From Bdellovibrionales bacterium (GTDB taxonomy: Bacteria; Bdellovibrionota; Bdellovibrionia; Bdellovibrionales; UBA1609): 64,000 nt of DNA. The notes beneath the pieces are model-generated. The model had not been told where the DNA came from, did not search any database, and worked only from the letters and a program-made list of their open reading frames with translations. Of the stretch, positions 2,846 through 49,332 are shown in pieces. Location of the stretch: contig OZ251448.1 in NCBI GenBank assembly GCA_965242515.1, positions 56,978 to 120,977 of the forward strand, written 5' to 3'. Each line of letters starts with the position of its first letter. Position 1 is the first letter of the stretch. Both the position numbers and the translations under genes were made by a program.

Positions 2846-2956
2846 GGGGAAAAACCTCACTCCAGATCTCGGACATGCGTTTTGCTACAAAGCGTAAGCC
2901 TTTGGGCTTTCCGCATTGTATCAAATCCGAACTCGTTTTGAGCATGGTTTTTCTCC
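2846..2956 (+). repeat. Family B rod-hairpin repeat, copy 1 (between rplB and rpsS)
   Basis: ggggaaaaacc...ggtttttctcc arms, core caaatccgaactcgttttga at 2922-2941. Confidence 0.9.
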
Positions 2957-3024
2957 TCTTAATAGGGTGTAATTATTTTTTTAACAATAAAAGTAACAAG
3001 AAAGGTAATAAATAAAAAGGAATT

Positions 3025-3312
3025 ATGGGGCGATCGGTAAAAAAAGGACCGTTTATAGACTATCACTTGATGGAGAAGATTGAGCGGGCTAAAAAAACGG
3101 GTGATAAGAAGGTGATTAAGACTTGGTCTAGGAGGTCGGTCATCATACCAGCGGCGGTGGGTTTAACTTTTGCTGTTCATAATGGCAAAAAATTTATTCC
3201 TGTTTTTGTGTCGGAAAGTATGATAGGACATAAATTAGGTGAGTTTGCTCCTACGAGGGTTTTTAGTAGCCATGCTAAGGGCAAAAAAACCACCCCGGTA
3301 AAGAAAAAATAA
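3025..3312 (+). CDS. rpsS: 30S ribosomal protein S19
   Basis: [28 protein letters not shown]. Confidence 0.98.
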
Positions 3313-3326
3313 AAGGGTAACAAATT

Positions 3327-3656
3327 ATGGAATTAAAAGCATCGTTAAAATATGCAAGAATAGGTGTTCAGCGTACTCGCATCGTAGCTGATAGTGTAAG
3401 GGGCAGTGATATTAATAGAGCTATTAATGTGCTGGCTTTTTCAAAAAAGAAATCAGCTAGTTTAATTTACAAGCTTATTCAGTCTGCTGTAGCGGGGGCT
3501 ACTAAGAAGGCGATGAATGTGGACAAGTTGTATGTTCAGTCGATTTATGTTAATCAGGCAGCACATTTAAAGCGTTTTCGTGCAGGGTCTAGGGGGCATC
3601 CGTCTCATAGAAATAAAAAGCAAAGTCACATTCATGTGGTTTTGAGGGAAAGGTAA
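3327..3656 (+). CDS. rplV: 50S ribosomal protein L22
   Basis: Size, position, KLIQSAVA and SHIHVVL motifs. Confidence 0.93.
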   Translation: MELKASLKYARIGVQRTRIVADSVRGSDINRAINVLAFSKKKSASLIYKLIQSAVAGATKKAMNVDKLYVQSIYVNQAAHLKRFRAGSRGHPSHRNKKQSHIHVVLRER

Positions 3657-3668
3657 AAGGGAATTATT

Positions 3669-4346
3669 ATGGGTCAGAAGGTTAGTCCAATTGGTTTAAG
3701 GGTAGGCGTTATTCGTAACTGGAATTCGCGTTGGTATGCTGACAAGAAAAAATTTGCAAGCCATATTCATGAGGATTACTGTTTGCGTCGTTATATCAAG
3801 CAAAAGCTTAAAAACTCTGGTGTGTCAAAGGTTGAGATTGAGCGAAAAGGTGAGCAAATTAAATTAGTTATTTTTACAGCTCGTCCGGGGGTGGTTATTG
3901 GCAAAAAAGGTGTAGGCATTGATTCTTTAGAAGCGGATATTCAAAAACGAACTAAAAATAAACTATCAGTCAGCATTCAGGAGGTAAGAAAGCCTGATTT
4001 AGACAGCCAATTAGTAGCAGAAAATATTGCTTTGCAATTACAAAAGAGAGTTTCTTGGAGAAGGGCTTTAAAAAAAGCTATTGCGTCAGCTGTTAGGCAA
4101 GGTGTAAGGGGGGTTAAGATTCGTGTATCAGGCAGGTTAGATGGTGCGGACATTGCTCGTTCAGAGTGGTATAATGAAAAAAGCATTCCACTGCACACTT
4201 TAAGGGCCAACATTGACTATGGTTTTGCAGAAGCTATCACGACTTACGGGCTGATAGGGGTTAAGGTATGGATGTATTATGGGGATGTGTACTCTAAGAG
4301 AGAAGTGTCTTCTATAGGGGTAGGAGGTAGTGGTAGTTATGCTTAG
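3669..4346 (+). CDS. rpsC: 30S ribosomal protein S3
   Basis: [36 protein letters not shown]. Confidence 0.98.
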
Positions 4347-4746
4347 TCCGAAAAAAGTCAAGTGGCGAAAAGTTCATAGAGGGCGTTTAAGAGGTTATGC
4401 TAAAAGGGGTTCTATGTTATCTTTTGGGGATTTTGGTTTAATGAGTATGACAGCGGGGCGTCTGACAGACCGTCAAATTGAAGCCAGTCGGATTGCTATT
4501 TCTCGTTCTATTAAGAGGGGTGGTAAGGTATGGATTAGGGTTTTTCCGGACAATCCTATTTCTAAAAAACCTATTGGTGTGCGGATGGGTTCTGGCAAAG
4601 GGGCTTTAGAGTTTTGGATTGCTAAAATCAAGCCGGGTCGTATTTTATTTGAGTTAGAAGGAGTGAGTGCAGACCTTGCTCGTAAAGCTTTTCGTTTAGC
4701 TAGTTATAAATTACCTTTTAAAACAAAATTTTTATCTAGAGTATAA
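4339..4746 (+). CDS. rplP: 50S ribosomal protein L16
   Basis: [27 protein letters not shown]. Confidence 0.97.
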
Positions 4747-4762
4747 CAAGGTGTTATGATTT

Positions 4763-5500
4763 ATGAAATATGAAGCAATAAAATATAAAGAAATAAAAAA
4801 CTTAGAGGTATCAGAGTTGCAAAAGCGTTTAGTGCAGGTGCGTCAGGGTTTGTTTCAAAAAAAAGCACAAAACAAGATTAAAAAATTAGCTCATCCTGTG
4901 CAGTTAAGGTATATGAGGCGAGACATTGCTCGTTTAAGTATGGCTTTAGCTTTAAAAAAAGCACATACCCCAGCTCTCGCATCTTCTGGTTCTTCTGTAT
5001 CGTCTCATAGTGAGGCTCTAAAGCCCATTGCAAAGCACAGTCAAAACCAGCAGATTAAAAACCAGCAGAATAAAAATAAGCACAGTAAAAAACAGCAGAT
5101 TAAAAAACAAACTCAAAAAGTAGCTTACAAAAAACGAGCTCACCAAAAGCTACAAACTAGTGATGATATTTCTCATACCTCTTCTAGTCAGGTTCAAAAA
5201 ATAAGCAAATTAAAAAGTCAGAATAAAACAAGTAAAGCAAGTAAAGTAGGTAAAGCACGAAGTAAAGCAGACTCTTTTGTCAAAGGTAGTCAAACATCTG
5301 CTCCTGATGCAAAACAAAAAAGCTCTACGAAGGGTAAGGAGGTGTTAGTTCAAACAAAAAGTAGCAGAATATGGGGTTGGCTACGGGGTCGTAAAAAACT
5401 AAAACCTGCTTCTTTAACTACAGACAAACTCACCACTAATGAATTAACAGACGAATTAACTGATGAATCAACTACAGAAAAACTAAATAAACAGGGGTAA
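4763..5500 (+). CDS. rpmC: 50S ribosomal protein L29 with ~180 aa C-terminal extension
   Basis: First ~65 aa L29-like (EIKNL...ELQKRL...LRYMRRDIARL); lies between rplP and rpsQ. Confidence 0.88.
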   Translation: MKYEAIKYKEIKNLEVSELQKRLVQVRQGLFQKKAQNKIKKLAHPVQLRYMRRDIARLSMALALKKAHTPALASSGSSVSSHSEALKPIAKHSQNQQIKNQQNKNKHSKKQQIKKQTQKVAYKKRAHQKLQTSDDISHTSSSQVQKISKLKSQNKTSKASKVGKARSKADSFVKGSQTSAPDAKQKSSTKGKEVLVQTKSSRIWGWLRGRKKLKPASLTTDKLTTNELTDELTDESTTEKLNKQG

Positions 5501-5504
5501 GAAA

Positions 5505-5930
5505 ATGAACGCAAATGAAAACACAAAAGTCATCAGTGATATAAAAACCAATAGTAAGAAGGTGGGAGTATCTTTAAGTGGTGGGGTTTCTACGCGTGGG
5601 TCTTTATCTCGCGGGAGGATGAACATTGTCAAAGGTCGTGTTATTTCTAACAAAGCACACAAAACCATTTCTGTTTTAATTTATTATTTAATGAAGCATC
5701 CGAAATACAAGAAGTATATTCGCAAAAAATCTGTTTTTAAAGCTCACGATGAAAAGGGCAAAGCCAAGTTAGGTGATATTGTTTCTATTTACGAAACGCG
5801 CCCTTTAAGTAAGACTAAGAGGTGGAAGTTATTTAAAATTGTAGAGAGTGTCAAAAAAAGTGATACCTCGGTAATAAAGAAGGATATAGCTTTGGAAAAA
5901 CCACCAGCCACAACGGATGTCAGGGGTTAA
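5505..5930 (+). CDS. rpsQ: 30S ribosomal protein S17 (N- and C-terminally extended)
   Basis: GRVISNKAHKTI, HPKYKKYI, KAHDE, ETRPLSKTKRW. Confidence 0.95.
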   Translation: MNANENTKVISDIKTNSKKVGVSLSGGVSTRGSLSRGRMNIVKGRVISNKAHKTISVLIYYLMKHPKYKKYIRKKSVFKAHDEKGKAKLGDIVSIYETRPLSKTKRWKLFKIVESVKKSDTSVIKKDIALEKPPATTDVRG

Positions 5931-6305
5931 GTGAAGATGATTCAGATGCAATCTCGTCTCAATGTGGCTGACAACTCTGGTGCTAGGCAAGTGCAGTGTA
6001 TTAAGGTATTAGGTGGCTCGCGGAGGGGTTACGCGGGCATTGGTGATATTATTGTGGTTTCTGTGAAGCAAGCTTTACCTCGTTCTAAGGTCAAAAAGGG
6101 CGACAAAGCTCGTGCAGTTATTGTGCGTACTGTGCATAAGATACAACGCACCGATGGCACTTCTATTCGTTTTGACGAAAACTCTGCTGTGTTAATCAAC
6201 AACAACAAAGAGCCTGTAGGTACTAGGATTTTTGGTCCTGTAGCCAGAGAGTTAAGGTCTAAGAATTTTATTAAAATTATTTCCATGGCACCGGAGGTAT
6301 TATAG
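5931..6305 (+). CDS. rplN: 50S ribosomal protein L14
   Basis: [34 protein letters not shown]; start may be ATG 5937. Confidence 0.98.
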
Positions 6306-6845
6306 ATGAATGCTTTGCAACAACATTACAACAAAAATCGTGTTGTTTTAAAAAAGGAGTTATCGCTTAAAAACATTATGGAAGTGCCATGTGTAAAAAA
6401 AGTCGTGTTAAGCATGTGTGTATCGCAAATGATAAAAAACCCTAAGATAGCTAAGTTTGTGGTGCAGGATTTATCTTTAATATCGGGTCAGAAGGCGATA
6501 GTGACAAAGGCTAAAAAGGCTGTGTCTAATTTTAAGATTAAAAAAGGAGTGCCTTTAGGAGCTTGTGTGACTTTACGCAGAGAGAAGATGTGGGTGTTTT
6601 TACAAAGGCTTATTCATTTTTCTCTTCCGAGGGTGAGGGATTTTAGGGGGCTTTCGCCAAAGAGCTTTGACGGGCATGGTAATTACAATATGGGTATTAA
6701 AGAGCAAATTATTTTCCCAGAAATTGATTATGACAAAGTAGATACCATTAGAGGGCTCAACATCTCTATTTGCACAAAGGCTAAAAACAATCAGCATGCT
6801 TTAGCTTTATTAAAAGTTTTAGGCATGCCTTTTAGAACACAGTAA
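6306..6845 (+). CDS. rplE: 50S ribosomal protein L5
   Basis: LPRVRDFRGL, FDGHGNY, EQIIFPEIDYD, GMPF. Confidence 0.97.
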   Translation: MNALQQHYNKNRVVLKKELSLKNIMEVPCVKKVVLSMCVSQMIKNPKIAKFVVQDLSLISGQKAIVTKAKKAVSNFKIKKGVPLGACVTLRREKMWVFLQRLIHFSLPRVRDFRGLSPKSFDGHGNYNMGIKEQIIFPEIDYDKVDTIRGLNISICTKAKNNQHALALLKVLGMPFRTQ

Positions 6846-6951
6846 AAAAAAAGAGCTAAAAAAGTAATGAAAGAAGTGATAAACAAAATGATAAAAAAGA
6901 TGATAAATAAAAAACTTAAGCTTATTTTTTTAATGAAAGGTAAAAAATTTT

Positions 6952-7341
6952 ATGGACACAATTAGTCAATTTTGCACGAGGATTCGAAACGCTGTGCGGG
7001 TCAAGCACAAGAAGGTAGACATACCCAGCTCTCGCATTCAAGAAAGTATCGCAAGGCAGTTAAAGTCAGGCGGGTACATTCGGGATTACAGGGTAGTGGA
7101 CGATGGTCGGCAAGGCATTATCAGAATTTATTTAAAATACAAAGTCAAAGGCGAATCTGTGATTACACAAATTGAAAGGCTTAGCAAGCCTTCTTGCAGA
7201 AGTTATGTTAGGGCTACTAAGATTCCTGATGTGTTATCAGGTAGGGGGCTTTTGATTTTAAGCACTAATCAAGGTGTGTTAAGTGGTAAAGAGGCAAAAA
7301 AACGAAACTGTGGTGGGGAGTTATTATGTCGCGTATGGTAA
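6952..7341 (+). CDS. rpsH: 30S ribosomal protein S8
   Basis: TRIRNA, SKPSCRSY, ILSTNQG, GGELLCRVW. Confidence 0.96.
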   Translation: MDTISQFCTRIRNAVRVKHKKVDIPSSRIQESIARQLKSGGYIRDYRVVDDGRQGIIRIYLKYKVKGESVITQIERLSKPSCRSYVRATKIPDVLSGRGLLILSTNQGVLSGKEAKKRNCGGELLCRVW

Positions 7342-7374
7342 AACTCCTATTGAGGCAATTACAAGCTACTTTTC

Positions 7375-7484
7375 GGGGAAAAACCATGCTCAAAAGCTTA
7401 GGACTCCGCGTTTTGCTACAAAGCGTAAGCTTTCAGCTTCCGCATTGTATCAAATCCGAACTCGTTTTGAATTGGTTTTTCCCC
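7375..7484 (+). repeat. Family B rod-hairpin repeat, copy 2
   Basis: ggggaaaaacca...tggtttttcccc arms; invariant core at 7451-7470. Confidence 0.92.
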
Positions 7485-7513
7485 TCTAAAGAGTGTAATT
7501 ATTTTTTGTCGTT

Positions 7514-7661
7514 GTTGTCATTCCTGCATCCGTTGTCATTCCTGCATCCGTTGTCATTCCTGCATCCGTTGTCATTCCTGCGAAGGCAGGAATCTCGCTT
7601 CACACTATATTCCCGTTTTCACGGGAATGACAGAGTATGGTCATTCCTGCGGAGGCAGGGA
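7514..7661 (+). repeat. Family A palindrome cluster with three 18-nt half-site units
   Basis: gtcattcctgc at 7517, 7535, 7553; full palindrome 7571-7594; inverted copy 7609-7631; further copy at 7640. Confidence 0.92.
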
Positions 7662-7678
7662 GGGAAGGGGTTACTATT

Positions 7679-8227
7679 ATGTCGCGGATAGGTAAGCTAC
7701 CAGTACCTATTACAGAAGGTGTGCAGGTACAAGTGAACACTCATAACGAGGTGCAAGTAAGTTCTAAAAACGGTGTATTAAAAATCCCCGTACAACCAGT
7801 TATTAGTGTGGCAGTTAAAGACGGGCAGGTGGTACTGACACGAGCTAACAATGAGCCACAAACGCGGGCTTGGCATGGCTTGTATCGTGTGCTTATTCGC
7901 AATGCTGTGGTAGGGGTATCTTCTGGCTGGAGTAAAACTTTAGTGATGAAAGGTGTAGGTTACAAAGCACAGGTAAAAGGTGATTTATTAGAGCTTAGTT
8001 TAGGTTATTCTCATCCTATTAAAATGACCATCCCTCAAGGTTTGAGTGTTAAGGTAGCCAAAACCAACATTACAGTATCAGGTGCTGACAGAGCCTTAGT
8101 GGGTGAGTTTTGTGCAAAAGTGCGTAAATTCAGAGAGCCTGAGCCTTATTTAGGTAAGGGTATTCGTTACATTGACGAAGTTATTCGTCGTAAAGCTGGC
8201 AAATCAGGAGGTGAAAAATCAAAATGA
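7679..8227 (+). CDS. rplF: 50S ribosomal protein L6
   Basis: MSRIGKLPV start at ATG 7679; LGYSHP, PEPYLGKGIRY. Confidence 0.97.
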   Translation: MSRIGKLPVPITEGVQVQVNTHNEVQVSSKNGVLKIPVQPVISVAVKDGQVVLTRANNEPQTRAWHGLYRVLIRNAVVGVSSGWSKTLVMKGVGYKAQVKGDLLELSLGYSHPIKMTIPQGLSVKVAKTNITVSGADRALVGEFCAKVRKFREPEPYLGKGIRYIDEVIRRKAGKSGGEKSK

Positions 8228-8601: not shown

Positions 8602-8713
8602 TAATAAAAAGTGATAAAAAAGGCTAAAAAAGTGATAAACAAACAAACAAAAAATGATATTAACTGGAGATGAATATGGAGATGCAAAAGGAGATGAAAA
8701 TGGGGGTTAGAAA

Positions 8714-11412: not shown

Positions 11413-11538
11413 CTAGATTAAATACTTTAGAGGGAAAAACCTTGGGATTAGGACTAAAGTATTTATAAAAAAGTCTAGTTTTAAAAAAAATGATTGTAAT
11501 TTATGAAAAAAATATTTATAGTTGCTAATATGAGTAGT

Positions 11539-12679: not shown

Positions 12680-12705
12680 CAACTATCAATTACAGGAGGA
12701 AGGTT

Positions 12706-14595: not shown

Positions 14596-16629
14596 GTGAA
14601 AAAGCTTGTTCATTTTTTAATTTTAGATTTTGGTTCTCAGTATACATGGCTTATTGCTCGTAGTTTTAGGGAGTTGGGTTTTTACTCGCAGGTAGAGGCT
14701 TTTGATTTTTCTTTAGAGAAGATAAAAGAGCTACAACCTGCAGGTATTATTTTAAGTGGTGGTCCGGATTCGGTATTAGATTCTTCAGCTCCAATTAGGG
14801 ATTTAAAGCAGTTACAATATATAGCCCCTGTATTGGGGATTTGTTATGGTTTGCAGTTAATATGTAAGCAATGGGGAGGGGAGGTAGTTTCTGCTACAGG
14901 AAGTAAAACTGGTAAAGGTGATTTTAGTAAGCGTTCTTATGGGAAGAAGTTTATTTACTGGTCTACACCTATTGCCGATAAGTTTATGTCAGCCGTCATT
15001 CCTTCGTCAGCCGTCATTCCTGCTTCTGCCGTCATTCCTTCGGAGGCAGGAATCCAGAAAGCACCTTTAGTGCGTACAAGCCTGGATTCCCGCCTTCGCG
15101 GGAATGACAATGGGGGAGGGAATGACAATGGGGGAGGGAATGACAATGGGGGAGGGAATGACAATGGGGGAGGGAATGACAATAGGGGAGGGAATGACAA
15201 TAGGGGAGGGAATGGTGATAGGGGAAGCATGCAAGGAGAGCATCAAAAAAAACACGCTATGCGTGGAGCTAAGTTATCGCAGACAATTACAACTAAAGTG
15301 CCATTGACAGATAACGGAGTGAGCATGCAAGGAGTGCATCAAAAGCAACAGCCTTTGGCTGTGTGGATGAGTCATGGGGATATTATATCTAAAGTACCTC
15401 AAGGCTTTGATGTGTTAGCTAAAACAAAACAAAGCACTCCTGCAATTTTATTTCATGCTGGCACAAAAAAAACCTCTATAAATATTAAAAAATATAATAA
15501 TAATAAAAACTTACAAAAACAAGTTAAAGTAAAACTTAAAAAAACTGATAATCGTGTTGCGTATCCGATATTAGCTTTGCAGTTTCATCCGGAGGTATCG
15601 CACACAGTAGGTGGTAAGGAGTTATTATTATATTTTGCGAGGGAGCTTGCGGGCATTTCTTCTAATGGGGGTTGGAAGGCGAGTTCTATATTAGATTTAG
15701 TTAAGTTAGAGGTAGAAAAGCAAATTAAGTCAGCGAAAGATAAGGTATTATGTGCTCTTAGTGGGGGGGTGGACTCGACGGTTGTTGCGTGTTTATTAAC
15801 AAAATTATTAGGTAAGGATAGGGTGTTATGTGTGTTTGTGGATACGGGTTTATTAAGAAAGGGTGAGTATAAAGAGGTGTTATCTTCTTATAAGAGTTTG
15901 GGGTTAAATGTAGAGGGGGTAAAGGCTGGGGAGCTTTTTTTAAAGGCGTTAGAGGGTGTACGAGAGCCTGAGAGAAAGCGAAAAATCATTGGCAAATTAT
16001 TTATTGATGTATTTAAAAAATACTATGAAAAGCCTTATTGTTTGGCTTATTTAGCACAAGGCACTTTGTATCCAGATGTGATTGAGAGTTTTTCTAAGGG
16101 TCCGAGTGCTACTATTAAATCGCATCATAATGTAGGGGGTTTACCTAAGGAAATGCCTTTTAGCTTAGTGGAGCCGTTGAGGTATTTATTTAAAGATGAG
16201 GTGAGGTTAGTAGGCAGGCATTTAGGGGTTTCGGAGTTATTGTTAAAGAGGCATCCTTTTCCGGGTCCGGGTTTAGCCATTCGTATAACGGGGGTAGTGA
16301 CAAAGGCTCGTTTAGATAAATTAAGGCTTGCGGACGCTATTTATATAGAGGAGTTAAGGCGAGCGGGGTTATATAACAAGATATGGCAGGCTTTTTGTGT
16401 GTTGTTGGATGTTAAATCAGTAGGTGTGCAAGGGGATAGTAGGACTTATGAGGAGACGGTGGTACTTAGGGCTGTGGTATCGTCTGATGGTATGACAGCA
16501 GATTGGTTTGTATTTCCACAGCAAGTGTTGCATGATATTTCTGATAGAATTACTAATGAGGTAAAGGGTATAAACAGGGTGCTTTATGATATTACATCTA
16601 AGCCACCGGGGACCATTGAGTGGATGTAA
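14596..16629 (+). CDS. guaA: GMP synthase (glutamine-hydrolysing) with in-frame repeat-derived insertion
   Basis: ILDFGSQYT, LGICYG, WMSHGD, QFHPEV, LSGGVDS, IKSHHNVGGLP, RHPFPGPGL, SKPPGTIEW. Confidence 0.97.
   Translation: MKKLVHFLILDFGSQYTWLIARSFRELGFYSQVEAFDFSLEKIKELQPAGIILSGGPDSVLDSSAPIRDLKQLQYIAPVLGICYGLQLICKQWGGEVVSATGSKTGKGDFSKRSYGKKFIYWSTPIADKFMSAVIPSSAVIPASAVIPSEAGIQKAPLVRTSLDSRLRGNDNGGGNDNGGGNDNGGGNDNGGGNDNRGGNDNRGGNGDRGSMQGEHQKKHAMRGAKLSQTITTKVPLTDNGVSMQGVHQKQQPLAVWMSHGDIISKVPQGFDVLAKTKQSTPAILFHAGTKKTSINIKKYNNNKNLQKQVKVKLKKTDNRVAYPILALQFHPEVSHTVGGKELLLYFARELAGISSNGGWKASSILDLVKLEVEKQIKSAKDKVLCALSGGVDSTVVACLLTKLLGKDRVLCVFVDTGLLRKGEYKEVLSSYKSLGLNVEGVKAGELFLKALEGVREPERKRKIIGKLFIDVFKKYYEKPYCLAYLAQGTLYPDVIESFSKGPSATIKSHHNVGGLPKEMPFSLVEPLRYLFKDEVRLVGRHLGVSELLLKRHPFPGPGLAIRITGVVTKARLDKLRLADAIYIEELRRAGLYNKIWQAFCVLLDVKSVGVQGDSRTYEETVVLRAVVSSDGMTADWFVFPQQVLHDISDRITNEVKGINRVLYDITSKPPGTIEWM
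14988..15362. repeat. Composite A + C repeat insertion inside guaA
   Basis: A palindromes 15031-15055 and 15084-15108 (inverted) with flanking 18-nt arrays; two C units at 96-bp period (15226, 15322). Confidence 0.9.
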
Positions 16630-16800: not shown

Positions 16801-16916
16801 TTTGACTATAAAAAAGTGACATATAATAACTCCTTTATTTGGGGTGGATTCTTAAAAATTCCCCTTTGTTTTTGTAAGTTAAAGAAGCTTTACAAAAAAT
16901 ATTCACTCTCTTTGGA

Positions 16917-17082
16917 GGGGAAAAACCATGCTCAAAACGAGTTCGGATTTGACACAAAGTGGTATCTACTAGATAACACTTTGTGGCAAAACGCGGAGTC
17001 CTAAGCTTTTGAGCATGGTTTTTCCCCGCAAAGCAAGTAGCAAACCGCGGAGTTTTAAGCTTCCCGCTTGCTTTTCTCACTT
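16917..17082 (-). repeat. Family B copy 3 (inverted; perfect 21-bp terminal inverted repeats) plus adjacent partial left arm
   Basis: ggggaaaaaccatgctcaaaa from 16917 and ttttgagcatggtttttcccc ending 17027; partial copy ~17037-17082. Confidence 0.92.
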
Positions 17083-20482: not shown

Positions 20483-22358
20483 TCAGTCGTCATTCCCGCG
20501 TTCATTGTCATTCCCGCGGAGGCGGGAATCCAGAAAGCACCTTTTATATAGTAAGAAAACCAAGTCAAAAGCTTTGGACTGCGGTTTGCCACAATGCATT
20601 AGCCTTTGGCTACTGCATTGTGTTCAAATCCGAACTCGTTTTGAATTGGTTTTCTTACTATTAAAACAATTACATTTATTATTGAGTAGCATTGATTGGC
20701 ATAAGGCAGAGTATGCACAAAGTGCATCAAAAGCCACCCGCTATGCGGGCGAACTCGTTTTGAGCATGGTTTTTCCCTTTGTAAGTAATACTATTTTTTT
20801 GTCATTCCTGCGTTCATTGTCATTCCTGCGTTCATTGTCATTCCTGCGTTCATTGTCATTCCTGCGTTCATTGTCATTCCCGCGTTCATTGTCATTCCTG
20901 CGTTCATTGTCATTCCTGCGTTCGTTGTCATTCCCGCGGAGGCGGGAATCCAGAAAGCACCTTTTATGGCAAAAAAGTGCAAACTTATTTATTTGTACTT
21001 TATTGTGTAGTATGTGTTTTACAAGCTTTGCAAAGCAAGAAGTCACCATTGAAGTCAAGCAAGCTGTGGTATTAAACAATAAGGCGTTAGGCAATAACAC
21101 ATCAGGCAATAAAGCACTGGACAATAACACATCGAAGATGGCAAATGCCGAGGCAAGCAATATTATTCCACCAAAGCCCAACATGGGTCAAGCAGTCAAA
21201 CAAGCCATTCAAACTCTTTCTATGGAGCTTATGGAAAAGCTTATTGAGCCAACAAAATTAGTGGCACAAAAAAAACAAATACAACAAATAATATCAACAC
21301 GATACAACCGCTACATTCTTTACACAAAAGTGGCGAGTCCTGCCAAGTTGGAAACCACATTGCCTGATGAGCAAAATTGTATAAAAAATAACTCATCATC
21401 TACACAATGTGTTGCATCTACCAACCAGAAAACCAATCAGCAAAACGATACGCATTTTGTTATCCCTATTACAATCGGCTTTTCTGAAGAAAATCTAAAG
21501 AAAATTTTATTATCTGAGGATCTTTTTTATTCTGGGGAGTTTAATCAACGGATTTTGCCTTTAGTATTTTTTAAAGATCAAGTTCAGCACCATTCTTACG
21601 CATGGTGGAGCAAAAAAAGCAAAAAACGCAAAACCCCCTCCCGCCTAATTAAACAATCGATACAGCAATTTTACGATAATATCCAAAAAGAATTGTTATT
21701 TTATGGGTTTTATTTAGTTAATACAGAATTCGTAGGAGCTGTGCATTTTATTCCGCAAGAGTTACGTTTTAACAAGCGTCGGCAAAGCTCTGTGTATCAG
21801 TTAGCCAAATTTTTTAAAGCTCCATTGGTGTTGATAGGTCAGGTGAAAGTCAAAGAGTTGGATACGAACACGCTTTTAGATTTAAAAGTAGAGCTAGGGG
21901 TGTATCACGCAAAAAGTGGTCGTTTATTGGCAGAGATAGAAAGGCTTGAAAAACTTCCTATCGTACACAATCATAAACATAAATCAGCTTTATGGACACT
22001 ACCTACTTTTTTAAAAAAGAACAAGCATTTTGCTAAAGGCTTAGGCTTGCAACTACGATCTATTTATGATACAGGTCAGCTTTCTTCACAAGTGGTGAGC
22101 ATTAAAGTGCAAGGGTATTTGACTTATCAACAATTTCAAGATTTAAAAAAACAAATTGTGTTGAATGTTCGCTCTGTGCAGAAGTTACAAGAAAGCTTAA
22201 TACGCAATAAATCTATTACTTTTCAAGCTCAAACAACTAAAACATTAGAAGAGGTAGCAAAGGAAGTGAAAAAAAGTCATTTTACGGGGTTTTCCACTAC
22301 TGTGTCTAACAACAGGCGAGAAATAGTGATAAGGGCTACTCCTCGTTCAAAAATATAA
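20475..22358 (+). CDS. Hypothetical exported protein; first ~165 codons are repeat-derived and the true start is uncertain
   Basis: Long ORF; signal-peptide-like segment LFICTLLCSMCFTSFA at ~20985-21032 follows the repeat block. Confidence 0.7.
   Translation: MSSQSSFPRSLSFPRRRESRKHLLYSKKTKSKALDCGLPQCISLWLLHCVQIRTRFELVFLLLKQLHLLLSSIDWHKAEYAQSASKATRYAGELVLSMVFPFVSNTIFLSFLRSLSFLRSLSFLRSLSFLRSLSFPRSLSFLRSLSFLRSLSFPRRRESRKHLLWQKSANLFICTLLCSMCFTSFAKQEVTIEVKQAVVLNNKALGNNTSGNKALDNNTSKMANAEASNIIPPKPNMGQAVKQAIQTLSMELMEKLIEPTKLVAQKKQIQQIISTRYNRYILYTKVASPAKLETTLPDEQNCIKNNSSSTQCVASTNQKTNQQNDTHFVIPITIGFSEENLKKILLSEDLFYSGEFNQRILPLVFFKDQVQHHSYAWWSKKSKKRKTPSRLIKQSIQQFYDNIQKELLFYGFYLVNTEFVGAVHFIPQELRFNKRRQSSVYQLAKFFKAPLVLIGQVKVKELDTNTLLDLKVELGVYHAKSGRLLAEIERLEKLPIVHNHKHKSALWTLPTFLKKNKHFAKGLGLQLRSIYDTGQLSSQVVSIKVQGYLTYQQFQDLKKQIVLNVRSVQKLQESLIRNKSITFQAQTTKTLEEVAKEVKKSHFTGFSTTVSNNRREIVIRATPRSKI
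20489..20966 (+). repeat. Chimeric A-B-C-B(half)-A repeat block
   Basis: A 20489-20531, B copy 4 20548-20661, C ~20690-20749 fused to B right half ending ~20777, seven A half-sites from 20801 plus full palindrome 20927-20951. Confidence 0.92.
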
Positions 22359-23006: not shown

Positions 23007-23432
23007 ATCATTCTTGCATCAGTTATCATTCCTGCGTTCATTGTCATTCCCGCGGAGGCGGGAATCCAGAAAGTACCTTTTATATAGTAAGAAAACCAAG
23101 TCAAAAGCTTAAAACTCCGCGGTTTGCCACAATGCATTAGCCTTTGGCTACTGCATTGTGTTCAAATCCGAACTCGTTTTGAATTGGTTTTCTTACTATT
23201 AAAACAACTACATTTATTATTGAGTAGCATTGATTGGCATAAGGCAGAGTATGCACAAAGTACATCAAAAGCAACCCCCTTTGGGGGCATCAAAAGTAGC
23301 CTGCTATGCGGGTGATGGAGTATTGGTACAGATAAAATTGTGAGTGTCATTGATTGGCATAAGGCAGAGTATGCACAAAGTACATCAAAAGCAACCCCCT
23401 TTGGGGGCATCAAAAGTAACCTACTTTTTGGG
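23007..23432 (+). repeat. Chimeric A-B-C block; near-identical direct repeat of 20489-20737, with a 120-bp tandem duplication of C
   Basis: A half-sites begin immediately after lipB stop; B copy 5 at 23084-23199; C units at ~23228 and ~23348. Confidence 0.92.
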
Positions 23433-43690: not shown

Positions 43691-43695
43691 TTTTG

Positions 43696-43912: not shown

Positions 43913-44091
43913 AACAATTTATAAAATACTTAATAGTGTTTATCTTTACACTACAAACACCTTTTGTTTATTCTAATGAACCAGTTGAAGGTCAACAAGC
44001 TTATATAGGACCTTGGGTGTATAGGGTGCTTAAATTAGGAGTTAGTGTTGGTACATTGTTGATGAAATATTGTGCTGAAGAACACAATTAA
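43909..44091 (+). CDS. Small exported hypothetical protein or gene remnant
   Basis: Signal-peptide-like N-terminus; GTGA overlap with upstream ORF. Confidence 0.45.
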   Translation: MKQFIKYLIVFIFTLQTPFVYSNEPVEGQQAYIGPWVYRVLKLGVSVGTLLMKYCAEEHN

Positions 44092-44296
44092 AAGAATACA
44101 TTAGTTACTATTTCTTTCGTCCATTGTTGTTATTTCTGCGTCAGTTGTCACTTTTACCACAATTTAAGAGAGGATAAAAAATGCTTTTTTTTCATCTCAT
44201 AACTAATTAAAATTACTTAACTTTTTAGTCTTAGGACTTTCGCTCAAGCTCTATCATAAGAACAAATACTAGCCCAAAAGCCCCTCCCTTTGATGG

Positions 44297-44896
44297 TTAG
44301 AATGTGGAGAGGATTTCTATAACGAATGCCATTTGTGTATTTTGCAAGGTATTATCGTTACAGCCTGGCAGTCTAATTTGTTCGGTTGTTTGGTAGTGGT
44401 CTAGGGGGATTTGTCTGTTGCAATTGGTGGTAATGTGTTTTCGAATCAGTGATTGACATTTATCTTTTTGAGATTGTTTTTCTGTTTTTAAGCAAGTTTG
44501 GTAGTTGATAACTTGTGATTTGTAGGATTTACAATTCCCTGTACATCCATCGACAAATGTAGCTTGTGTTTGTTTTGTGGAGCTTTTTCCGGGTATGGGT
44601 GGAGGGGGTGGTGGGACGGGAATCCAACCATCTTTTGAAGACATATCACTTGATGATGGACCGAAATGAGCAAAACGAGCTTTTGGTTGCTCTTCATTAC
44701 CTGAAGGAGTAGAGTTTTTTTGCAACTGTTTTGATAAGGGTACAGGAGCTGTGGCAGATTGAGGGCTTTTAGCTTTAACCATTGTTACCATACTAACAGT
44801 TATCACAAAAGCCATTGTGTACTTATGGCAAATTACTCTGCATATTACTCTACATATAGTTGTAAAATAAGACAAAATTTTAGTTTTTAAAAGCAT
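44297..44896 (-). CDS. Hypothetical exported protein, Pro-rich linker and Cys-rich C-terminus
   Basis: 199-aa ORF; sigma-28-like promoter upstream. Confidence 0.7.
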   Translation of the reverse strand: MLLKTKILSYFTTICRVICRVICHKYTMAFVITVSMVTMVKAKSPQSATAPVPLSKQLQKNSTPSGNEEQPKARFAHFGPSSSDMSSKDGWIPVPPPPPPIPGKSSTKQTQATFVDGCTGNCKSYKSQVINYQTCLKTEKQSQKDKCQSLIRKHITTNCNRQIPLDHYQTTEQIRLPGCNDNTLQNTQMAFVIEILSTF

Positions 44897-44906
44897 AGCT
44901 CTTTTA

Positions 44907-44934
44907 TTATCGGCAAAAGTAACAAAAATCTTGA
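44907..44934 (-). promoter_or_regulatory. Sigma-28-like promoter
   Basis: TCAAG-N15-GCCGATAA on minus strand, 10 nt upstream of ATG 44896. Confidence 0.55.
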
Positions 44935-44969
44935 TTTTTTATAGATTATTTAGTATCCTATTATAAGCT

Positions 44970-45308
44970 ATGAAACAATTTACACCTTTATTTCAAGCAA
45001 TTATAGCATTTGTAGCCGTACTTACAGGCTTAGGTTTTGTGTTTAACTTACTTTTAGGACCAGTTAAGGCTTCTCAAGAAGAATCTAGGATTTCTCAAAA
45101 ATATGCTAGAGATGCCCAAGAGCGTTCCAGAATCGCTCAAGAACGCTTTAGTGTGATCCAAGAACAGCTAAAAGTAGCCCAGGACGACCTAAGGAAAAAC
45201 CAAAAAGATATGGAATCAGAGCTTAAGCAAGTGCAATCAGAGCTTAAACAAGTACATACAAAAATAGACCTACTCTTAAGTAGGAGTAAAAAAGGCTTTT
45301 CATCATAA
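44970..45308 (+). CDS. Small protein with N-terminal TM helix and coiled coil
   Basis: Hydrophobic N-terminus then heptad-like repeats (ESRISQ/ERSRIAQ, SELKQV x2). Confidence 0.75.
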   Translation: MKQFTPLFQAIIAFVAVLTGLGFVFNLLLGPVKASQEESRISQKYARDAQERSRIAQERFSVIQEQLKVAQDDLRKNQKDMESELKQVQSELKQVHTKIDLLLSRSKKGFSS

Positions 45309-45605
45309 ACATTAAAACTAAAGTCTAGAAATCAAGGGGATAAACAAAAACAACAAATTTGCTGAAATTCTGCTAAAAAAAGCCAAAAGTGGTTGAAAAA
45401 GCAAGAAATCTTAAGTTTTGTATGAAAAAAATGGATTTTTGAGCAGTTTTTGTAGGATTTTTTACTTGTTTTTTATTTTTTATTAGTACACACTTTTAAA
45501 AGCTGAAGGGTTTTAAAGTGATTTAAGCTTTAGGGTTTAAAATTTTATTAACAAATTAACAAATTTAAAAAAGAATTAACAATTTTATAAAAAGGAGGCT
45601 ATGTT

Positions 45606-46226
45606 ATGAAAACAATAATCATTCATTTTTTATCCGTACTATTACTTACCATGTATGCCATAACGGCAACTGCTACACACCATAAGGCTAAAAAAAGCCA
45701 TACTAAGCGGGAGCTATTGTCGCACCACACGCACAGTATGTCGCATAGTAGTGTATATGACAAAGGTTTTGTCACTATTAGTTACGGGCTGGAGTTTGAT
45801 CCTTTTAATGACCTAGAGTATAAGAATATGTTGGTAGATTTGCAGTATGGTCGCCATTTTGGCAGAAAAAGCTTTTTTTCTGCAGGTGTAAGGGGGCATC
45901 ATGAGGTAGCCTTAGTTTTTAGATACGGGATGGATTTTACCAGAAATTGGAGTTGGGTACCTGGTTTAGATGCATCTGTTTTAATTGGCAGAACATGGTC
46001 TAGCCCTAAACCGGTTGATAGTGGACAAGGTAATAATAATGTTAAATCTCAACCTTCTTTAGGGTTCGGTTTTGAATTTGGTTTTTATTTAAAAACTTTT
46101 ATTACTAAAGTGCATGCTATATTTTTGCGTACTGGTGTAGTGCATGAAAACAACCAATCTCTTTCCAACTTTGACTTTAAAGATTCTTCAGCTTACATTC
46201 ACCTTATGTTGCGGTGGCACTTTTAA
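45606..46226 (+). CDS. Putative outer-membrane beta-barrel protein with His-rich N-terminus
   Basis: Signal peptide, alternating beta pattern, terminal aromatic (RWHF). Confidence 0.7.
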   Translation: MKTIIIHFLSVLLLTMYAITATATHHKAKKSHTKRELLSHHTHSMSHSSVYDKGFVTISYGLEFDPFNDLEYKNMLVDLQYGRHFGRKSFFSAGVRGHHEVALVFRYGMDFTRNWSWVPGLDASVLIGRTWSSPKPVDSGQGNNNVKSQPSLGFGFEFGFYLKTFITKVHAIFLRTGVVHENNQSLSNFDFKDSSAYIHLMLRWHF

Positions 46227-46241
46227 TAGCACTTTAGTTTA

Positions 46242-47684
46242 GTGAAGGGGAACTCTTTAGTAAGGGTGCGTTTTGCACCCAGCCCTACAGGTGTTTTACA
46301 TGTAGGGGGTGTGCGTACTGCTTTATTTAATTACTTATTTGCTAAAAAACACCAAGGTAGTTTTATTTTACGAGTGGAAGATACCGATACCACTCGTAGC
46401 AACGATTCTTACTTAACAGAACAACTAGAAAATTTAAAATGGCTGGGTCTTAATTGGGACGATGGTCCTTACAGGCAAAGTGAAAGGTTACACATTTACC
46501 GTCATTGGGCTTATCAGTTAATAAAAAAAGGGCATGCCTACTACTGTTTTTTAAGTGAAGCAGAGTGTGAGGCACAAAAAAAACAATCTATCCAAAACAC
46601 CCCTTTTCGTATTAAAAGCCCCTATAGGGACGAAAGCTTGCAAACAGCGGAAGCTAAAATACAAGCAGGTGAAAAAGCCACTATTCGTTTTAAAGCTTCT
46701 ACCCACACTGTCAAACAGTATTCTTTCACAGATATTGTACGGGGTGATATATCTTTTCCCTCTGACATGGTGGGGGATTTTATACTGATAAGGGCAAATG
46801 GTATGCCGGTTTATAATTTTTCTTGTGCGGTGGACGATCACCTTATGCATATTTCCCATGTACTCCGTTCAGAAGAACATCTACCCAACACCCTAAGGCA
46901 GTTAATGATTTTTGACGCTCTTTTGTGGAAAAGACCTTTATTCGGACACCTGTCTATTATACAAGGCAGTGATCGTAAAAAATTAAGCAAAAGGCATGGA
47001 GCTGTGTCTTGCAAAGAGTACAAAAAACAAGGCTATTTACCAGAGGCCTTGGTCAACTTTTTAGCCCTTTTAGGTTGGAACCCTAAAACAACTCAAGAGT
47101 TTTTTTTGCTACCAGAATTAATAAAACTATTTTCTCTTAAAGGTCTCCATACTGCCCCTGCCGTGTTTGATGAAAAAAAACTTAAGTGGTTAAACAGCCA
47201 ACATATTAAACAATCAGACGACTTACTTTTATGGAGCAAATTAAATATATTTTTTCGCCAAAAAGGCTTAGAGTTTCCAAACTCTAATGAGTGGCGTAAA
47301 AAAGCTGTGCAAACACTTAAAACTTCTTTTACCACTTTGTTAGAAGGGGCAGAGTTATTTCAAGCTCTATCGTTAAACGAGTTTAAGATTTATCCGTCAG
47401 CTAAAGTGATATATCAATGGTCGTCCACAATGGATGTTTTAAAAGCCTGGGAGGAATGTTTAAAATCCCATAAAGATACTATAGTAGAAAGTAAAGATTT
47501 TTTATCTTTTGTGAAACTTATTCAAACCAAGGTAAAAGTAAAGGGTAAGTTTTTGTTTATGCCTCTTCGTGTAGCTGTTATGGGATACCCAGAAGGGGCT
47601 GAACTAAAAACCATAGTACCCCTTCTTACTCGTGATATATTGCTACAAAGAGTGAAAAAAGCTTGCTTGATAAATGAGCGATAA
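46242..47684 (+). CDS. gltX: Glutamate-tRNA ligase
   Basis: RFAPSPTG, HVGG, LRVEDTD, KLSKR. Confidence 0.97.
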   Translation: MKGNSLVRVRFAPSPTGVLHVGGVRTALFNYLFAKKHQGSFILRVEDTDTTRSNDSYLTEQLENLKWLGLNWDDGPYRQSERLHIYRHWAYQLIKKGHAYYCFLSEAECEAQKKQSIQNTPFRIKSPYRDESLQTAEAKIQAGEKATIRFKASTHTVKQYSFTDIVRGDISFPSDMVGDFILIRANGMPVYNFSCAVDDHLMHISHVLRSEEHLPNTLRQLMIFDALLWKRPLFGHLSIIQGSDRKKLSKRHGAVSCKEYKKQGYLPEALVNFLALLGWNPKTTQEFFLLPELIKLFSLKGLHTAPAVFDEKKLKWLNSQHIKQSDDLLLWSKLNIFFRQKGLEFPNSNEWRKKAVQTLKTSFTTLLEGAELFQALSLNEFKIYPSAKVIYQWSSTMDVLKAWEECLKSHKDTIVESKDFLSFVKLIQTKVKVKGKFLFMPLRVAVMGYPEGAELKTIVPLLTRDILLQRVKKACLINER

Positions 47685-47702
47685 TGTAATAAACCATAGC
47701 TT

Positions 47703-49118
47703 GTGAAATCAACAGAAAAAAAAACACGCTTTGTGTGCCAAGAATGTGGTGCAGAATGCCTCAAGTGGCAAGGGCAATGCCCTCAATGTAAAAAGTGGAA
47801 CTGTCTTACAGAAGAGCTGTTATCCCCCGCCGTATCGCCTTTTGCCGGCTCACAAAAAACCCTTGCTTCTTCTGGTAAGCAGCCTGTTCTTCTTAGTGAT
47901 AAACTATCGCACTCCACCGAATATCGAACACCTACTAACATGCCGGAATTAGACCGTGCCTTAGGAGGGGGCTTAGTCCCCGGCTCCTACATTCTCTTAG
48001 GCGGAGCCCCCGGTATTGGTAAAAGCACTTTGCTTTTGCAAATGGCAGAAGGTTTGTCTCAAACATCAACTGCTAAAAAAAATAATCAAAAAAATCAAAC
48101 GGTGTTTTATGTGTCAGCAGAAGAAAGCACTAATCAAACAATTATGCGAGCCTCACGGTTAGCTCTTAAAAAAACACCATCTATTTTTATACTGAACGAA
48201 ACCTCCTTAGATCGTATCTTTCACCATGTGGAAAAAATCAAACCTAAAGTGTTAATTGTGGATTCGATACAAACAGTGCAGCTATCGGCTTTGTCGTCCC
48301 CAGCAGGTTCTATGTCTCAATTAAGAGAATGTGCTAACCAATTACTTACTTTTGCTAAAAACACGCAAACCACAGTGTTTATTATCGGGCATATTACCAA
48401 AGACGGTCAATTAGCAGGTCCCCGTTTGTTAGAACACACAGTAGATACCGTACTATCTTTTGAAGGCGACCCTCATTATAATTTTCGCCTCTTAAGAGTG
48501 TTGAAAAATCGTTTTGGACCTACAAACGAAGTAGGCGTGTTTCAAATGTCGTCAATGGGGCTTGTGGGTGTGGCTAACCCTTCTCAATTTTTTTTAGAAG
48601 AAAGAGGAGGGGCTGAGTGCATCGGCTCTGCTGTGTTCACCGCTATGAAAGGCTCTCGCCCCCTCCTTTGCGAAGTGCAAGCCTTAGCCCTTAAAAGCTA
48701 CCTGCCTATGCCTCGCCGTACAGCTATAGGTATTGATGTTAACAGATTAAATATGATTATCGCTATTTTAGATCGCTACCTGAATACAAAGCTTTCTCAA
48801 TACGATATATTTGTTAATGTGGCAGGCGGGCTAAAAATAACAGAACCTGCTATCGACCTGGCTGTGGCAAAAGCCCTACTGTCAGCTAAAACAGGAAAGG
48901 CTGTGGACCATACTAGTTGCTTTTTTGGAGAGCTGGGACTAACAGGCGAAACTAGAGCAGGGGCTTTTTGCGAAGAGCGTATTAAAGAAGCTGTCAAACT
49001 GGGTTTTCAACATATCTACATCCCCCTAAGTAATAAAAAAAACCTGCACCTCACATCTAAAGAACTAAAAAATATTACCATACATGGTATAAAACACATC
49101 ACCCCCAAAGGGGGATAA
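47703..49118 (+). CDS. radA: DNA repair protein RadA/Sms
   Basis: CQECG...CPQC zinc finger, GAPGIGKSTLLLQ, KNRFG, GELGLTGE. Confidence 0.97.
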   Translation: MKSTEKKTRFVCQECGAECLKWQGQCPQCKKWNCLTEELLSPAVSPFAGSQKTLASSGKQPVLLSDKLSHSTEYRTPTNMPELDRALGGGLVPGSYILLGGAPGIGKSTLLLQMAEGLSQTSTAKKNNQKNQTVFYVSAEESTNQTIMRASRLALKKTPSIFILNETSLDRIFHHVEKIKPKVLIVDSIQTVQLSALSSPAGSMSQLRECANQLLTFAKNTQTTVFIIGHITKDGQLAGPRLLEHTVDTVLSFEGDPHYNFRLLRVLKNRFGPTNEVGVFQMSSMGLVGVANPSQFFLEERGGAECIGSAVFTAMKGSRPLLCEVQALALKSYLPMPRRTAIGIDVNRLNMIIAILDRYLNTKLSQYDIFVNVAGGLKITEPAIDLAVAKALLSAKTGKAVDHTSCFFGELGLTGETRAGAFCEERIKEAVKLGFQHIYIPLSNKKNLHLTSKELKNITIHGIKHITPKGG

Positions 49119-49165
49119 TTTTGATGCTACTCTGCTAAGAACGTTCTACCTTCATCTAATCCATA
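49100..49165 (-). repeat. Family C copy overlapping radA stop codon
   Basis: cacccccaaagggggataattttgatgctac; reverse complement resembles 24678-24737. Confidence 0.8.
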
Positions 49166-49179
49166 CCCCCTACTTTCAG

Positions 49180-49332
49180 TGGAAAAAACCTCACTCCAGA
49201 GCTTAGGAATACAACTTTTAAAGTGAGCAAACCCAAGTCAAAAGCTTATGCCTGCGGTTTACCGCAAAGTGAAAGCCCAAGGCTACTACTTTGCGTCAAA
49301 TCCGAACTCGTTTTGAATTTAATTTGCTCACT
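49180..49332 (+). repeat. Partial B left arm plus family B copy 6 (49222-49332)
   Basis: agtgagcaaa...tttgctcact arms; invariant core 49297-49316. Confidence 0.88.

What the first reader, a model, noticed from the sequence alone, without database searches (positions are those of the whole stretch)
2846..49332. Family B: dispersed ~110-nt rod hairpin with compensatory changes around an invariant 20-nt core
Seen: six full copies (2846-2956, 7375-7484, 16917-17027 inverted, 20548-20661, 23084-23199, 49222-49332) and partial arms (~11432, ~17037-17082, ~20750-20777, ~49180, 61552). All six share caaatccgaactcgttttga exactly, yet the paired parts differ while staying complementary. Outer arms: ggggaaaaacca/tggtttttcccc, atagtaagaaaaccaa/ttggttttcttactat, agtgagcaaa/tttgctcact. 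Inner stems: cacaatgca/tgcattgtg, cacaaagtg/cactttgtg, cgcaaagt/actttgcg, tacaaagcg/cgcattgta. Known: classical MITEs conserve the sequence of their terminal repeats; here the termini vary and the interior is fixed. Inference: a structure-selected element (structured RNA, or ssDNA hairpin substrate of an unknown recombinase or HUH nuclease) with a protein-read core. I do not recognise it as a named family, and it is the best candidate for an undescribed system here.
Basis: partly seen in the sequence, partly recalled or inferred. Interest (0 to 1): 0.82.

Follow-up and report, generated by a model that had tools for sequence, protein, structure and literature searches.

The report
Hairpin repeat with fixed loop letters
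A roughly 130-base DNA repeat that folds into a long hairpin, keeps a few loop letters fixed while its stems change freely but stay paired, has multiplied in a small-genome Bdellovibrio-like bacterium and occurs sparsely across its relatives; no enzyme that moves it has been found.

Summary
The six copies, the exact 20-mer and the complementary but differing stems are at the stated coordinates.

Genome-wide there are 72 core-bearing copies in 1.76 Mb. Pairing exceeds every control in the own genome, in the genus and across families.

- **Distribution.** The family is in 10 of 14 other genomes of the genus. It is in 16 of 151 genomes sampled from the class, G000 included, sometimes as one copy abutting a gene's stop codon.
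- **Evidence of insertion.** Three own-genome sites are empty in the nearest relatives: rplB|rpsS, rpsH|rplF and inside nnr.
- **What it is not.** It matches no Rfam family, and no RAYT (Y1), TnpB, IS110 or tested DDE gene accompanies it.
- **What is missing.** There are no conserved terminal repeats, no detectable target duplication and no young copies.
- **DNA or RNA.** G·T and A·C mismatches are about equally common, which favours DNA-level symmetry over an RNA-only constraint.

Best reading: an undescribed REPIN/MITE-like hairpin element read at its asymmetric internal loop by an unknown protein. The mechanism is inferred.

This scan already noted the same family in other windows of this genome.

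The parts
2831..2971 (+). Full copy 1, between rplB and rpsS inside the ribosomal-protein operon; core at 2922-2941
   Evidence: 127.3 bits; flanking genes; the site is empty in 13 of 14 relatives
7360..7499 (+). Full copy 2, between rpsH and rplF; core at 7451-7470
   Evidence: (129.5 bits); B seen in none of the 13 relatives where both genes were found, though none of these spacers was scanned with the model
16902..17042 (-). Full copy 3 (inverted), between guaA and dnaE; core at 16932-16951
   Evidence: (131.2 bits)
17037..17082 (-). Left arm plus left box of another copy, abutting copy 3 (nested or truncated copy)
   Evidence: left flank of c73928m
20535..20674 (+). Full copy 4, downstream of dnaE, preceded by a family-A hairpin; core at 20625-20644
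   Evidence: 140.6 bits
20698..20793 (+). Short form: a small GC hairpin joined to the right box and right arm (exact 20-letter right-arm match at 20754-20773)
   Evidence: (23.9 bits, E 0.013)
23071..23212 (+). Full copy 5, downstream of a lipB-like gene and before a tRNA gene; core at 23163-23182
   Evidence: 136.9 bits
49177..49208 (+). Left-arm fragment of another copy, abutting copy 6
   Evidence: left flank of c106274p
49208..49346 (+). Full copy 6, downstream of a radA-like gene; core at 49297-49316
   Evidence: 121.5 bits
61552..61574 (+). Isolated left arm abutting an 18-nt tandem array

Best explanation
Family B is a non-coding, roughly 125-140-bp palindromic interspersed repeat. It is a selfish hairpin element of the MITE/REPIN kind.

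- **Distribution.** It is spread patchily through a class of Bdellovibrio-like bacteria and is greatly expanded in one small-genome genus.
- **Unit, from outside to inside:**
  - a fast-evolving outer stem that is almost perfectly Watson-Crick paired;
  - a short helix;
  - an asymmetric internal loop whose letters are fixed (a left box ending in ...ACATGCG and a right box ...CCGAACTCG);
  - a variable inner hairpin.
- **Shown.**
  - The structure holds with compensatory change at every taxonomic depth tested.
  - Sites differ between species in whether the repeat is present.
  - Copies lie in operon spacers, in other copies and in one open reading frame.
  - No tested transposase family accompanies the repeat.
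- **Inferred.**
  - The unit is recognised as a folded single strand, more likely DNA than RNA.
  - A trans-acting protein, still unidentified and possibly a housekeeping one, reads the unpaired boxes.
  - Resident copies also exchange their inner hairpin and arms as cassettes, by recombination across the fixed segments.
For: **Structure**
- Own genome: 94.6% of cells paired against 83.6% in shuffles; 329 double-change cells against 128.6; 0 of 500 shuffles reach either.
- 49 matches from 10 other genomes of the genus: 97.0% against 74.3%; 28 of 34 pairs changed on both sides.
- Ten matches (nine loci; one is an opposite-strand hit) from seven genomes of four families: 94.6% against 56.5%; 33 of 34 pairs changed on both sides.
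- The boxes stay fixed while the stems are unrelated between species.

**DNA-level symmetry**
- G.T 80 against A.C 63 in the own genome; 23 against 21 elsewhere.

**Insertion**
- rplB|rpsS is filled only in G000 and G014, with different stems. It is empty in 13 others, including the two nearest relatives.
- rpsH|rplF shows B only in G000: 0 of the 13 relatives in which both genes were found, read by eye, not scanned with the model.
- The nnr insert is absent in all 14 relatives, and the frame stays open.
- Nested and truncated copies occur.
- Copy number runs from none found to over 100 matches per genome.
- Three single copies in larger genomes abut three different genes.

**The arms belong to the unit**
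- 51 arm pairs lie 80-99 nt apart. Only 1 pair lies 14 nt apart.

**Linkage follows pairing**
- Outer-left with outer-right: 17 combinations (tree-like minimum 16). Inner-left with inner-right: 19 (minimum 16).
- Left box with inner-left: 30 combinations (minimum 14).
Against: - No target-site duplication: the longest left/right direct repeat averages 6.89 against 6.68 in the null.
- No sign of recent movement in this genome. Median pairwise identity is 78%. Of 2,415 pairs, 5 are at least 97% alike; 4 of those lie in segmental duplications and the fifth has part-similar flanks.
- No partner enzyme was found. The two IS families present have unrelated ends.
- The core is intact in copies that are about 22% diverged elsewhere. 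This suggests selection or conversion acting on resident copies, not only at the moment of copying.
- In G000 the copies follow gene direction, not replication direction (36 same against 10 opposite; genes on the lagging strand 6 against 1). That would suit an RNA-level role.
- Public contigs of near-identical strains break at the repeats, so they show neither gain nor loss.
- The alignments were fitted to the model's structure and lean towards it.
Confidence: 0.45

Rival explanations
1. A cis-acting RNA hairpin. The unit works in transcripts, for example as an RNase III or other processing site, a 3'-end stabiliser, or the docking site of an RNA-binding protein. Host selection keeps it, and its spread is secondary.
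For: - In G000 copies are co-oriented with flanking genes: 40 against 7 in tandem contexts, and 36 against 10 with stringent gene calls.
- Two copies sit in sense inside the ribosomal-protein operon.
- Three of three single copies examined in larger genomes abut the stop codon of a co-oriented gene.
- The core is intact in old, diverged copies.
Against: - G.U is no commoner than A.C.
- G.U is rare in the outer helix, where all four Watson-Crick pairs occur.
- The orientation bias does not recur in a small sample from other genomes. Of 30 hits, 24 had ORFs on both sides: 6 same, 8 opposite.
- No Rfam family matches.
- There is no recurrent promoter-like site.
- One copy is translated inside nnr.
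- Half the genus-level copies sit at non-orthologous sites.
Confidence: 0.2
2. Passive palindromic repeats with no dedicated enzyme. They spread with the mosaic blocks around them and by ectopic recombination. Arm-to-arm template switching (quasi-palindrome correction) and gene conversion keep the arms complementary. The fixed segments are recombination anchors or sites for a nucleoid protein.
For: - No partner enzyme and no target duplication.
- Near-perfect Watson-Crick arms with symmetric mismatch types.
- Discrete variants of each segment are reassorted among copies.
- Copies are embedded in mosaics with other repeat modules, and flanks are shared within subfamilies.
- 9.4% of the genome lies in repeats of three or more copies.
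Against: - The same two boxes are kept across families and in contigs of about 50% G+C while everything else changes.
- Clean solitary copies lie in operon spacers, in nnr and after unrelated genes in larger genomes.
- Conserved mismatched loops ought to be erased by arm correction.
Confidence: 0.2
3. An ordinary IS-derived MITE or a REP/REPIN moved by a DDE transposase or a RAYT.
For: - Its size, hairpin shape, intergenic habit and copy number are typical of these elements.
- REPINs also show compensatory changes (passages read).
Against: - The ends are not conserved and there is no target duplication.
- No Y1_Tnp, TnpB, DDE_Tnp_1, DDE_3 or IS110 gene is in G000.
- Y1_Tnp is in 3 of 15 genomes of the genus and is unrelated to the presence of the repeat.
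- The rve and IS1595-like elements have unrelated ends.
Confidence: 0.05

Closest known systems
REPINs / REP sequences with RAYT (TnpA-REP) transposases
   Same: About 100-bp hairpin-forming, mostly extragenic repeats. They persist in lineages, show compensatory changes in the hairpin, form clusters, and are thought to act as single strands (passages of PMC3116915 read).
   Different: REPINs have two conserved inverted ends and a free middle. Here the ends are free and an asymmetric interior is fixed. No RAYT is present in any copy-rich genome.
Correia repeat-enclosed elements (CREE/NEMIS) of Neisseria (recalled, not read here)
   Same: Hairpin repeats of 100-150 bp. They are co-transcribed with genes, sit in mosaics with other small repeats, and have no known transposase.
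   Different: As I recall, Correia elements have conserved 26-bp terminal repeats and a TA duplication. Neither a conserved end nor a duplication is seen here.
Rickettsia palindromic elements (RPE)
   Same: Palindromic repeats that can sit in frame inside protein-coding genes. One copy here is read through inside nnr.
   Different: A different phylum. Only one coding insertion was seen among the 72 copies. No RPE sequence was on hand to compare.
Folded single-strand recombination sites (integron attC, IS200/IS605 ends) (recalled)
   Same: Recognition by shape plus a few unpaired letters, with free stem sequence.
   Different: There is no cassette array. The genome has only two tyrosine recombinase genes and no Y1 or TnpB genes. 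The copies are dispersed.

Membership tests
REP/REPIN-RAYT | A RAYT (Y1 HUH transposase) gene in the carrier genome | tested here: not met
   0 matches in G000, while the control rang in 6 of 14 genomes. In the genus, only G006, G009 and fragments in G001 match, which is 3 of 15; G006 has no repeat.
REP/REPIN-RAYT | Two conserved inverted REP ends around a variable spacer | tested here: not met
   The outer arms vary (24 left-arm types in 70 copies). The fixed letters are interior and are not inverted copies of each other.
REP/REPIN-RAYT | A hairpin kept by compensatory changes | tested here: met
Classical IS-derived MITE | Conserved terminal inverted repeats matching a parent IS | tested here: not met
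   The ends of the rve IS and of the IS1595-like IS are unrelated. No DDE_Tnp_1 or DDE_3 gene is present.
Classical IS-derived MITE | Target-site duplication | tested here: inconclusive
   There is no excess of flanking direct repeats (mean 6.89 against 6.68). The exact ends could not be fixed, so a 2-4-bp duplication cannot be excluded.
Any Rfam RNA family | A match at or above the gathering score | tested here: not met
   The window gives only two tRNAs. Six copies at E up to 1 give only microRNA-precursor hits of 20-31 bits, against cut-offs of 70-195.
Rickettsia palindromic elements | In-frame presence inside coding genes | tested here: met
   One case: nnr, with the 594-aa frame intact and the insert absent in 14 of 14 relatives.
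Rickettsia palindromic elements | Sequence relatedness to RPE families | not testable with these tools
   No RPE reference sequence was available in any library used.
Integron attC | A cassette array next to an integron integrase | tested here: not met
   The copies are dispersed over the whole chromosome. Only two Phage_integrase genes are present.
IS200/IS605 ends | TnpA (Y1) and/or TnpB in the genome | tested here: not met

The most novel reading that the evidence does not exclude
The unit is the cis-substrate of a still unknown structure-specific enzyme that acts on single strands and is not an HUH enzyme, or it hijacks a housekeeping enzyme. That protein reads an asymmetric internal loop and ignores the stem sequence. 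It cuts or exchanges at the loop, so inner hairpins and arms move as cassettes. This would be a new class of long-lived, REPIN-like replicator shared across a bacterial class.
Probability: 0.25. Interest if true: 0.8.

Novelty: new variant of a known kind. Interest (0 to 1): 0.6.

Why it matters
Bacterial hairpin repeats are usually explained by a known partner: RAYT for REPs, or a parent IS for MITEs. This family has strong and deep evidence of a kept fold and two fixed unpaired boxes, yet none of the usual partners.

It also reverses the usual layout, with free ends and a fixed interior. The family gives a clean, testable bait: a 20-30-letter loop in a hairpin that could be used to fish for the protein.

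It also shows how small host-associated genomes outside Rickettsia fill operon spacers, and even genes, with palindromic DNA.

Tried and rejected
- **Insertion into pre-existing palindromes.** Rejected. Arms of this type almost never occur without the interior: 51 pairs lie 80-99 nt apart against 1 at 14 nt.
- **Paralogous empty sites.** Nine candidates were found. The ones inspected were module swaps, not clean empty sites.
- **A 10-bp direct repeat at the rplB|rpsS copy.** Dropped, because its right half recurs at other copies and so belongs to the unit.
- **Reverse transcriptase next to one copy.** It is a DRT2-type defence RT found only in G000 and in repeat-free G012. It is unrelated.
- **Rpn/YhgA-like nucleases (PF04754).**
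  - For a link: 11 of 72 copies lie within 1 kb of one, against 3.1 expected and a maximum of 10 in 500 trials. Such genes also lie near copies in G001, G002 and G004.
  - Against a link: G013 has the repeat but no such gene, and G020 has 15 genes but no repeat.
  - Verdict: a weak lead only.
- **Y2_Tnp search.** Uninformative, because the control rang nowhere.
- **dif-like site.** A script search with a recalled consensus found nothing near the terminus. No conclusion drawn.
- **Sigma-70-like promoter scan.** No recurrent site.
- **Sequencing runs.** No RNA holder is listed. Contigs of four runs from one study break at the repeats and bridge no empty site. This says nothing on expression or on gain and loss.
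- **Genes around copies in G030 and in two metagenome contigs.** Ordinary genes, no shared neighbour.
- **Viral contigs.** 0 matches to the two-box pattern.
- **Metagenome contigs.** 29 pattern matches, of which only 2 were confirmed by the model.
- **Genome-collection scan with the 19-mer.** 18 loci. Thirteen are in records labelled Bdellovibrionales or Oligoflexia. The other five were not checked and may be chance.

Supplementary files of papers were not consulted.
Full report
**Observation**

Chance would give 0.01.

A covariance model (R1) was built from 70 of the 72 own-genome copies; two truncated copies were left out. It recovers exactly six full units in the window, at 121.5-140.6 bits. 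Each unit is also hit more weakly on the opposite strand, and one partial unit lies at 20698-20793.

As single-stranded DNA all six fold into rods, with z-scores of -5.1 to -11.0.

The quoted stems are there and are complementary. One quoted inner stem carries an A.A mismatch.

Four of the five partial arms are real. The one near 11432 is only a faint resemblance.

**The family in its own genome**

The window lies in a single 1,761,023-bp contig of 34.7% G+C.

The core occurs 72 times with up to two mismatches: 50 exact, 20 with one change and 2 with two. The pattern read backwards occurs 0 times.

Similarity shared by all copies runs from about -80 to +35 around the core start. Beyond that, only subfamilies share flanks.

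Those flanks are other repeat modules:
- an ATTCCC-N8-GGGAAT hairpin with arrays of an 18-nt half-site;
- a GC-hairpin module;
- 21-nt tandem repeats.

Spurious long ORFs run through these mosaics. By my count, 9.4% of the genome lies in repeats of three or more copies.

By my reading of the list there are two further forms:
- a short form, in which a small GC hairpin replaces the left box and inner hairpin (14 copies);
- a subfamily with an altered core (6 copies).

**Structure**

On a MAFFT alignment of the 70 copies, the RNAalifold structure has 34 pairs.
- 94.6% of cells pair, against 83.6% in shuffles.
- 329 cells changed on both sides, against 128.6.
- No shuffle of 500 reaches either figure, and sliding the partner by 1-3 columns drops pairing to 36-53%.

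In 49 matches from ten other genomes of the genus:
- pairing is 97.0% against 74.3%;
- 28 of 34 pairs change on both sides;
- the outer helix uses all four Watson-Crick pairs with very few G.U.

In ten matches from seven genomes of four families (nine loci; one match is an opposite-strand hit), pairing is 94.6% against 56.5%, and 33 of 34 pairs change on both sides.

The last two alignments were fitted to the model's structure and lean towards it. Related sequences can also beat shuffles without any structure. The slid controls and the unrelated stems between species nevertheless make the fold secure.

Two unpaired boxes facing each other across an asymmetric internal loop stay fixed at every depth:
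- on the left, ...CTCRGACATGCG;
- on the right, ...CCGAACTCG.

They are flanked by two short helices that themselves covary.

**DNA or RNA**

On the strand as given, G.T/T.G cells number 80 and A.C/C.A cells 63 in the own genome. In the other species the figures are 23 and 21. An RNA under selection on one strand should tolerate G.U far better than A.C. This near-symmetry points to a constraint that treats both strands alike.

Against that, G000 copies follow the direction of the flanking genes:
- 40 same against 7 opposite in tandem contexts;
- 36 against 10 with stringent gene calls;
- where genes lie on the lagging strand, 6 follow the genes and 1 follows replication.

The bias did not recur in a small sample from other genomes. 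Of 30 hits, 24 had ORFs on both sides: 6 same, 8 opposite, 6 convergent and 4 divergent. However, three of three single copies examined in larger genomes abut the stop codon of a co-oriented gene. I leave this open.

**Mobility**

| Site in G000 | State in relatives |
|---|---|
| rplB\|rpsS spacer, 215 nt with the unit | Empty in 13 of 14 relatives. The nearest by RpsS identity, G007 and G003, have spacers of 3 and 9 nt. G014 has a unit with different stems in a 466-nt spacer. |
| rpsH\|rplF spacer | B seen by eye in 0 of the 13 relatives where both genes were found; G014's locus stopped short of rplF, and no spacer was scanned with the model. |
| nnr, about 60 extra residues around a unit | Insert absent in all 14 relatives. 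The 594-aa frame stays open. |

Copies are also nested in, or truncate, other copies.

Distribution:
- The family is in 10 of 14 other genomes of the genus. The 'matches' counted there include both strands of a locus.
- It is in a second genus and in a 3.2-Mb genome of another family.
- It is in 16 of 151 genomes sampled from the class, G000 included, covering 11 of 62 genera. Often there are 1-10 copies, at non-orthologous places.
- It is in 2 of 29 pattern-matched metagenome contigs, which have about 50% G+C.

Points against current mobility in G000:
- No target duplication can be shown.
- Copies are old, with a median identity of 78%.
- Of the 5 near-identical pairs, 4 lie in segmental duplications and the fifth (97.5%) has part-similar flanks.

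**Partner**

| Family searched | Result |
|---|---|
| Y1_Tnp, TnpB, DDE_Tnp_1, DDE_3, IS110, Rep_trans | Not in G000 |
| Y2_Tnp | Uninformative |
| Y1_Tnp across the genus | In 3 of 15 genomes, unrelated to the repeat |
| rve IS and IS1595-like IS | Present, but with unrelated ends |
| DRT2 reverse transcriptase beside one copy | Unrelated |
| Rpn/YhgA-like genes | Enriched near copies, but they do not co-occur strictly with the repeat |

**Internal population structure**

Segments that pair are inherited together even when they are 100 nt apart:
- outer arms, 17 combinations (tree-like minimum 16);
- inner arms, 19 combinations (minimum 16).

Neighbouring unpaired and paired segments are reassorted:
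- left box with inner-left, 30 combinations (minimum 14).

Two explanations fit. Selection may remove unpaired recombinants, or cassettes may be exchanged between the fixed segments. This is inference.

**Comparison and novelty**

No Rfam family reaches its threshold. No plasmid or phage record matches, and neither do the viral contigs. The box strings are in none of the searched papers.

REPINs are the closest described kind. From the passages of PMC3116915 that I read, they have conserved inverted ends and a free, compensating middle. This is the reverse of the layout here, and RAYT is absent.

Correia elements, RPEs and attC sites are compared from recall.

Another note (e1-4751912) reported the nnr insertion. 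I re-tested both points here.

**Verdict**

This is a real, strongly structured and previously undescribed hairpin repeat family. It has an unusual layout and no known partner. How it moves, and whether it serves the host, remain open.

Noticed in passing
window 20484-20535, 20799-20950, 7514-7640, 61575-61690: A second repeat family. It is a hairpin of the form ATTCCC-N8-GGGAAT, preceded by arrays of an 18-nt unit that carries one half-site. It often lies directly upstream of a family-B copy, in this genome and in G002. From recall it resembles the dRS3/NIME arrangement of Neisseria; this was not tested.
   Followed up: partly
G000:C1:1346608-1347789 and 1720358-1721539: Two copies (99% alike) of a 1,182-bp IS with an rve-type transposase of 352 aa and roughly 30-bp terminal repeats. 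Both are inserted inside ATTCCC..GGGAAT repeats, with an apparent 5-bp duplication.
   Followed up: partly
G000:C1:433195-433947 and five further places: Six near-identical copies (99.6-100%) of a 753-bp element that encodes a 236-aa protein. It looks like an IS1595-type transposase, but that name is from recall and was not scanned.
   Followed up: partly
G000:C1:354216-356000 (-): A family-B copy is read through in frame inside nnr. It adds about 60 residues in a loop that varies in length among 10 aligned relatives.
   Followed up: yes
window 14596-16629 (guaA), repeats at 14988-15214: The GMP synthase ORF is 677 aa. It holds two arrays of 18-nt repeats related to the second family between its amidotransferase and synthetase domains, so repeats appear to be translated there too.
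   Followed up: no
window 60223-63024: A 933-aa ORF runs through a family-B left arm, an 18-nt array and a family-A hairpin at 61552-61690. It may be two genes joined by open repeats, or another coding insertion.
   Followed up: no
G000:C1:678010-679446: A DRT2-type defence reverse transcriptase (396 bits to the PADLOC Drt2 model), with a family-B copy 9 nt after its stop. Within the genus it was found only in G000 and G012.
   Followed up: yes
G000, 17 places (for example C1:263754-264806): A large expansion of YhgA/Rpn-like genes (Pfam Transposase_31): 17 matches in 1.76 Mb, mostly with open frames of 320-420 aa. Comparable expansions occur in two other genomes of the family, G020 and G060.
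   Followed up: partly
L177, L180, L156 (rplB|rpsS and rpsH|rplF spacers of G002, G011, G008): In relatives the ribosomal-protein operon spacers hold other insertions: small cysteine-rich ORFs, a duplicated rplR-like stretch, and other tandem repeats.
   Followed up: no
G004:C1:736978-738051; G011:C5:1336666-1337315: Tandem arrays of family-B units at regular spacing of about 213-300 nt.
   Followed up: no
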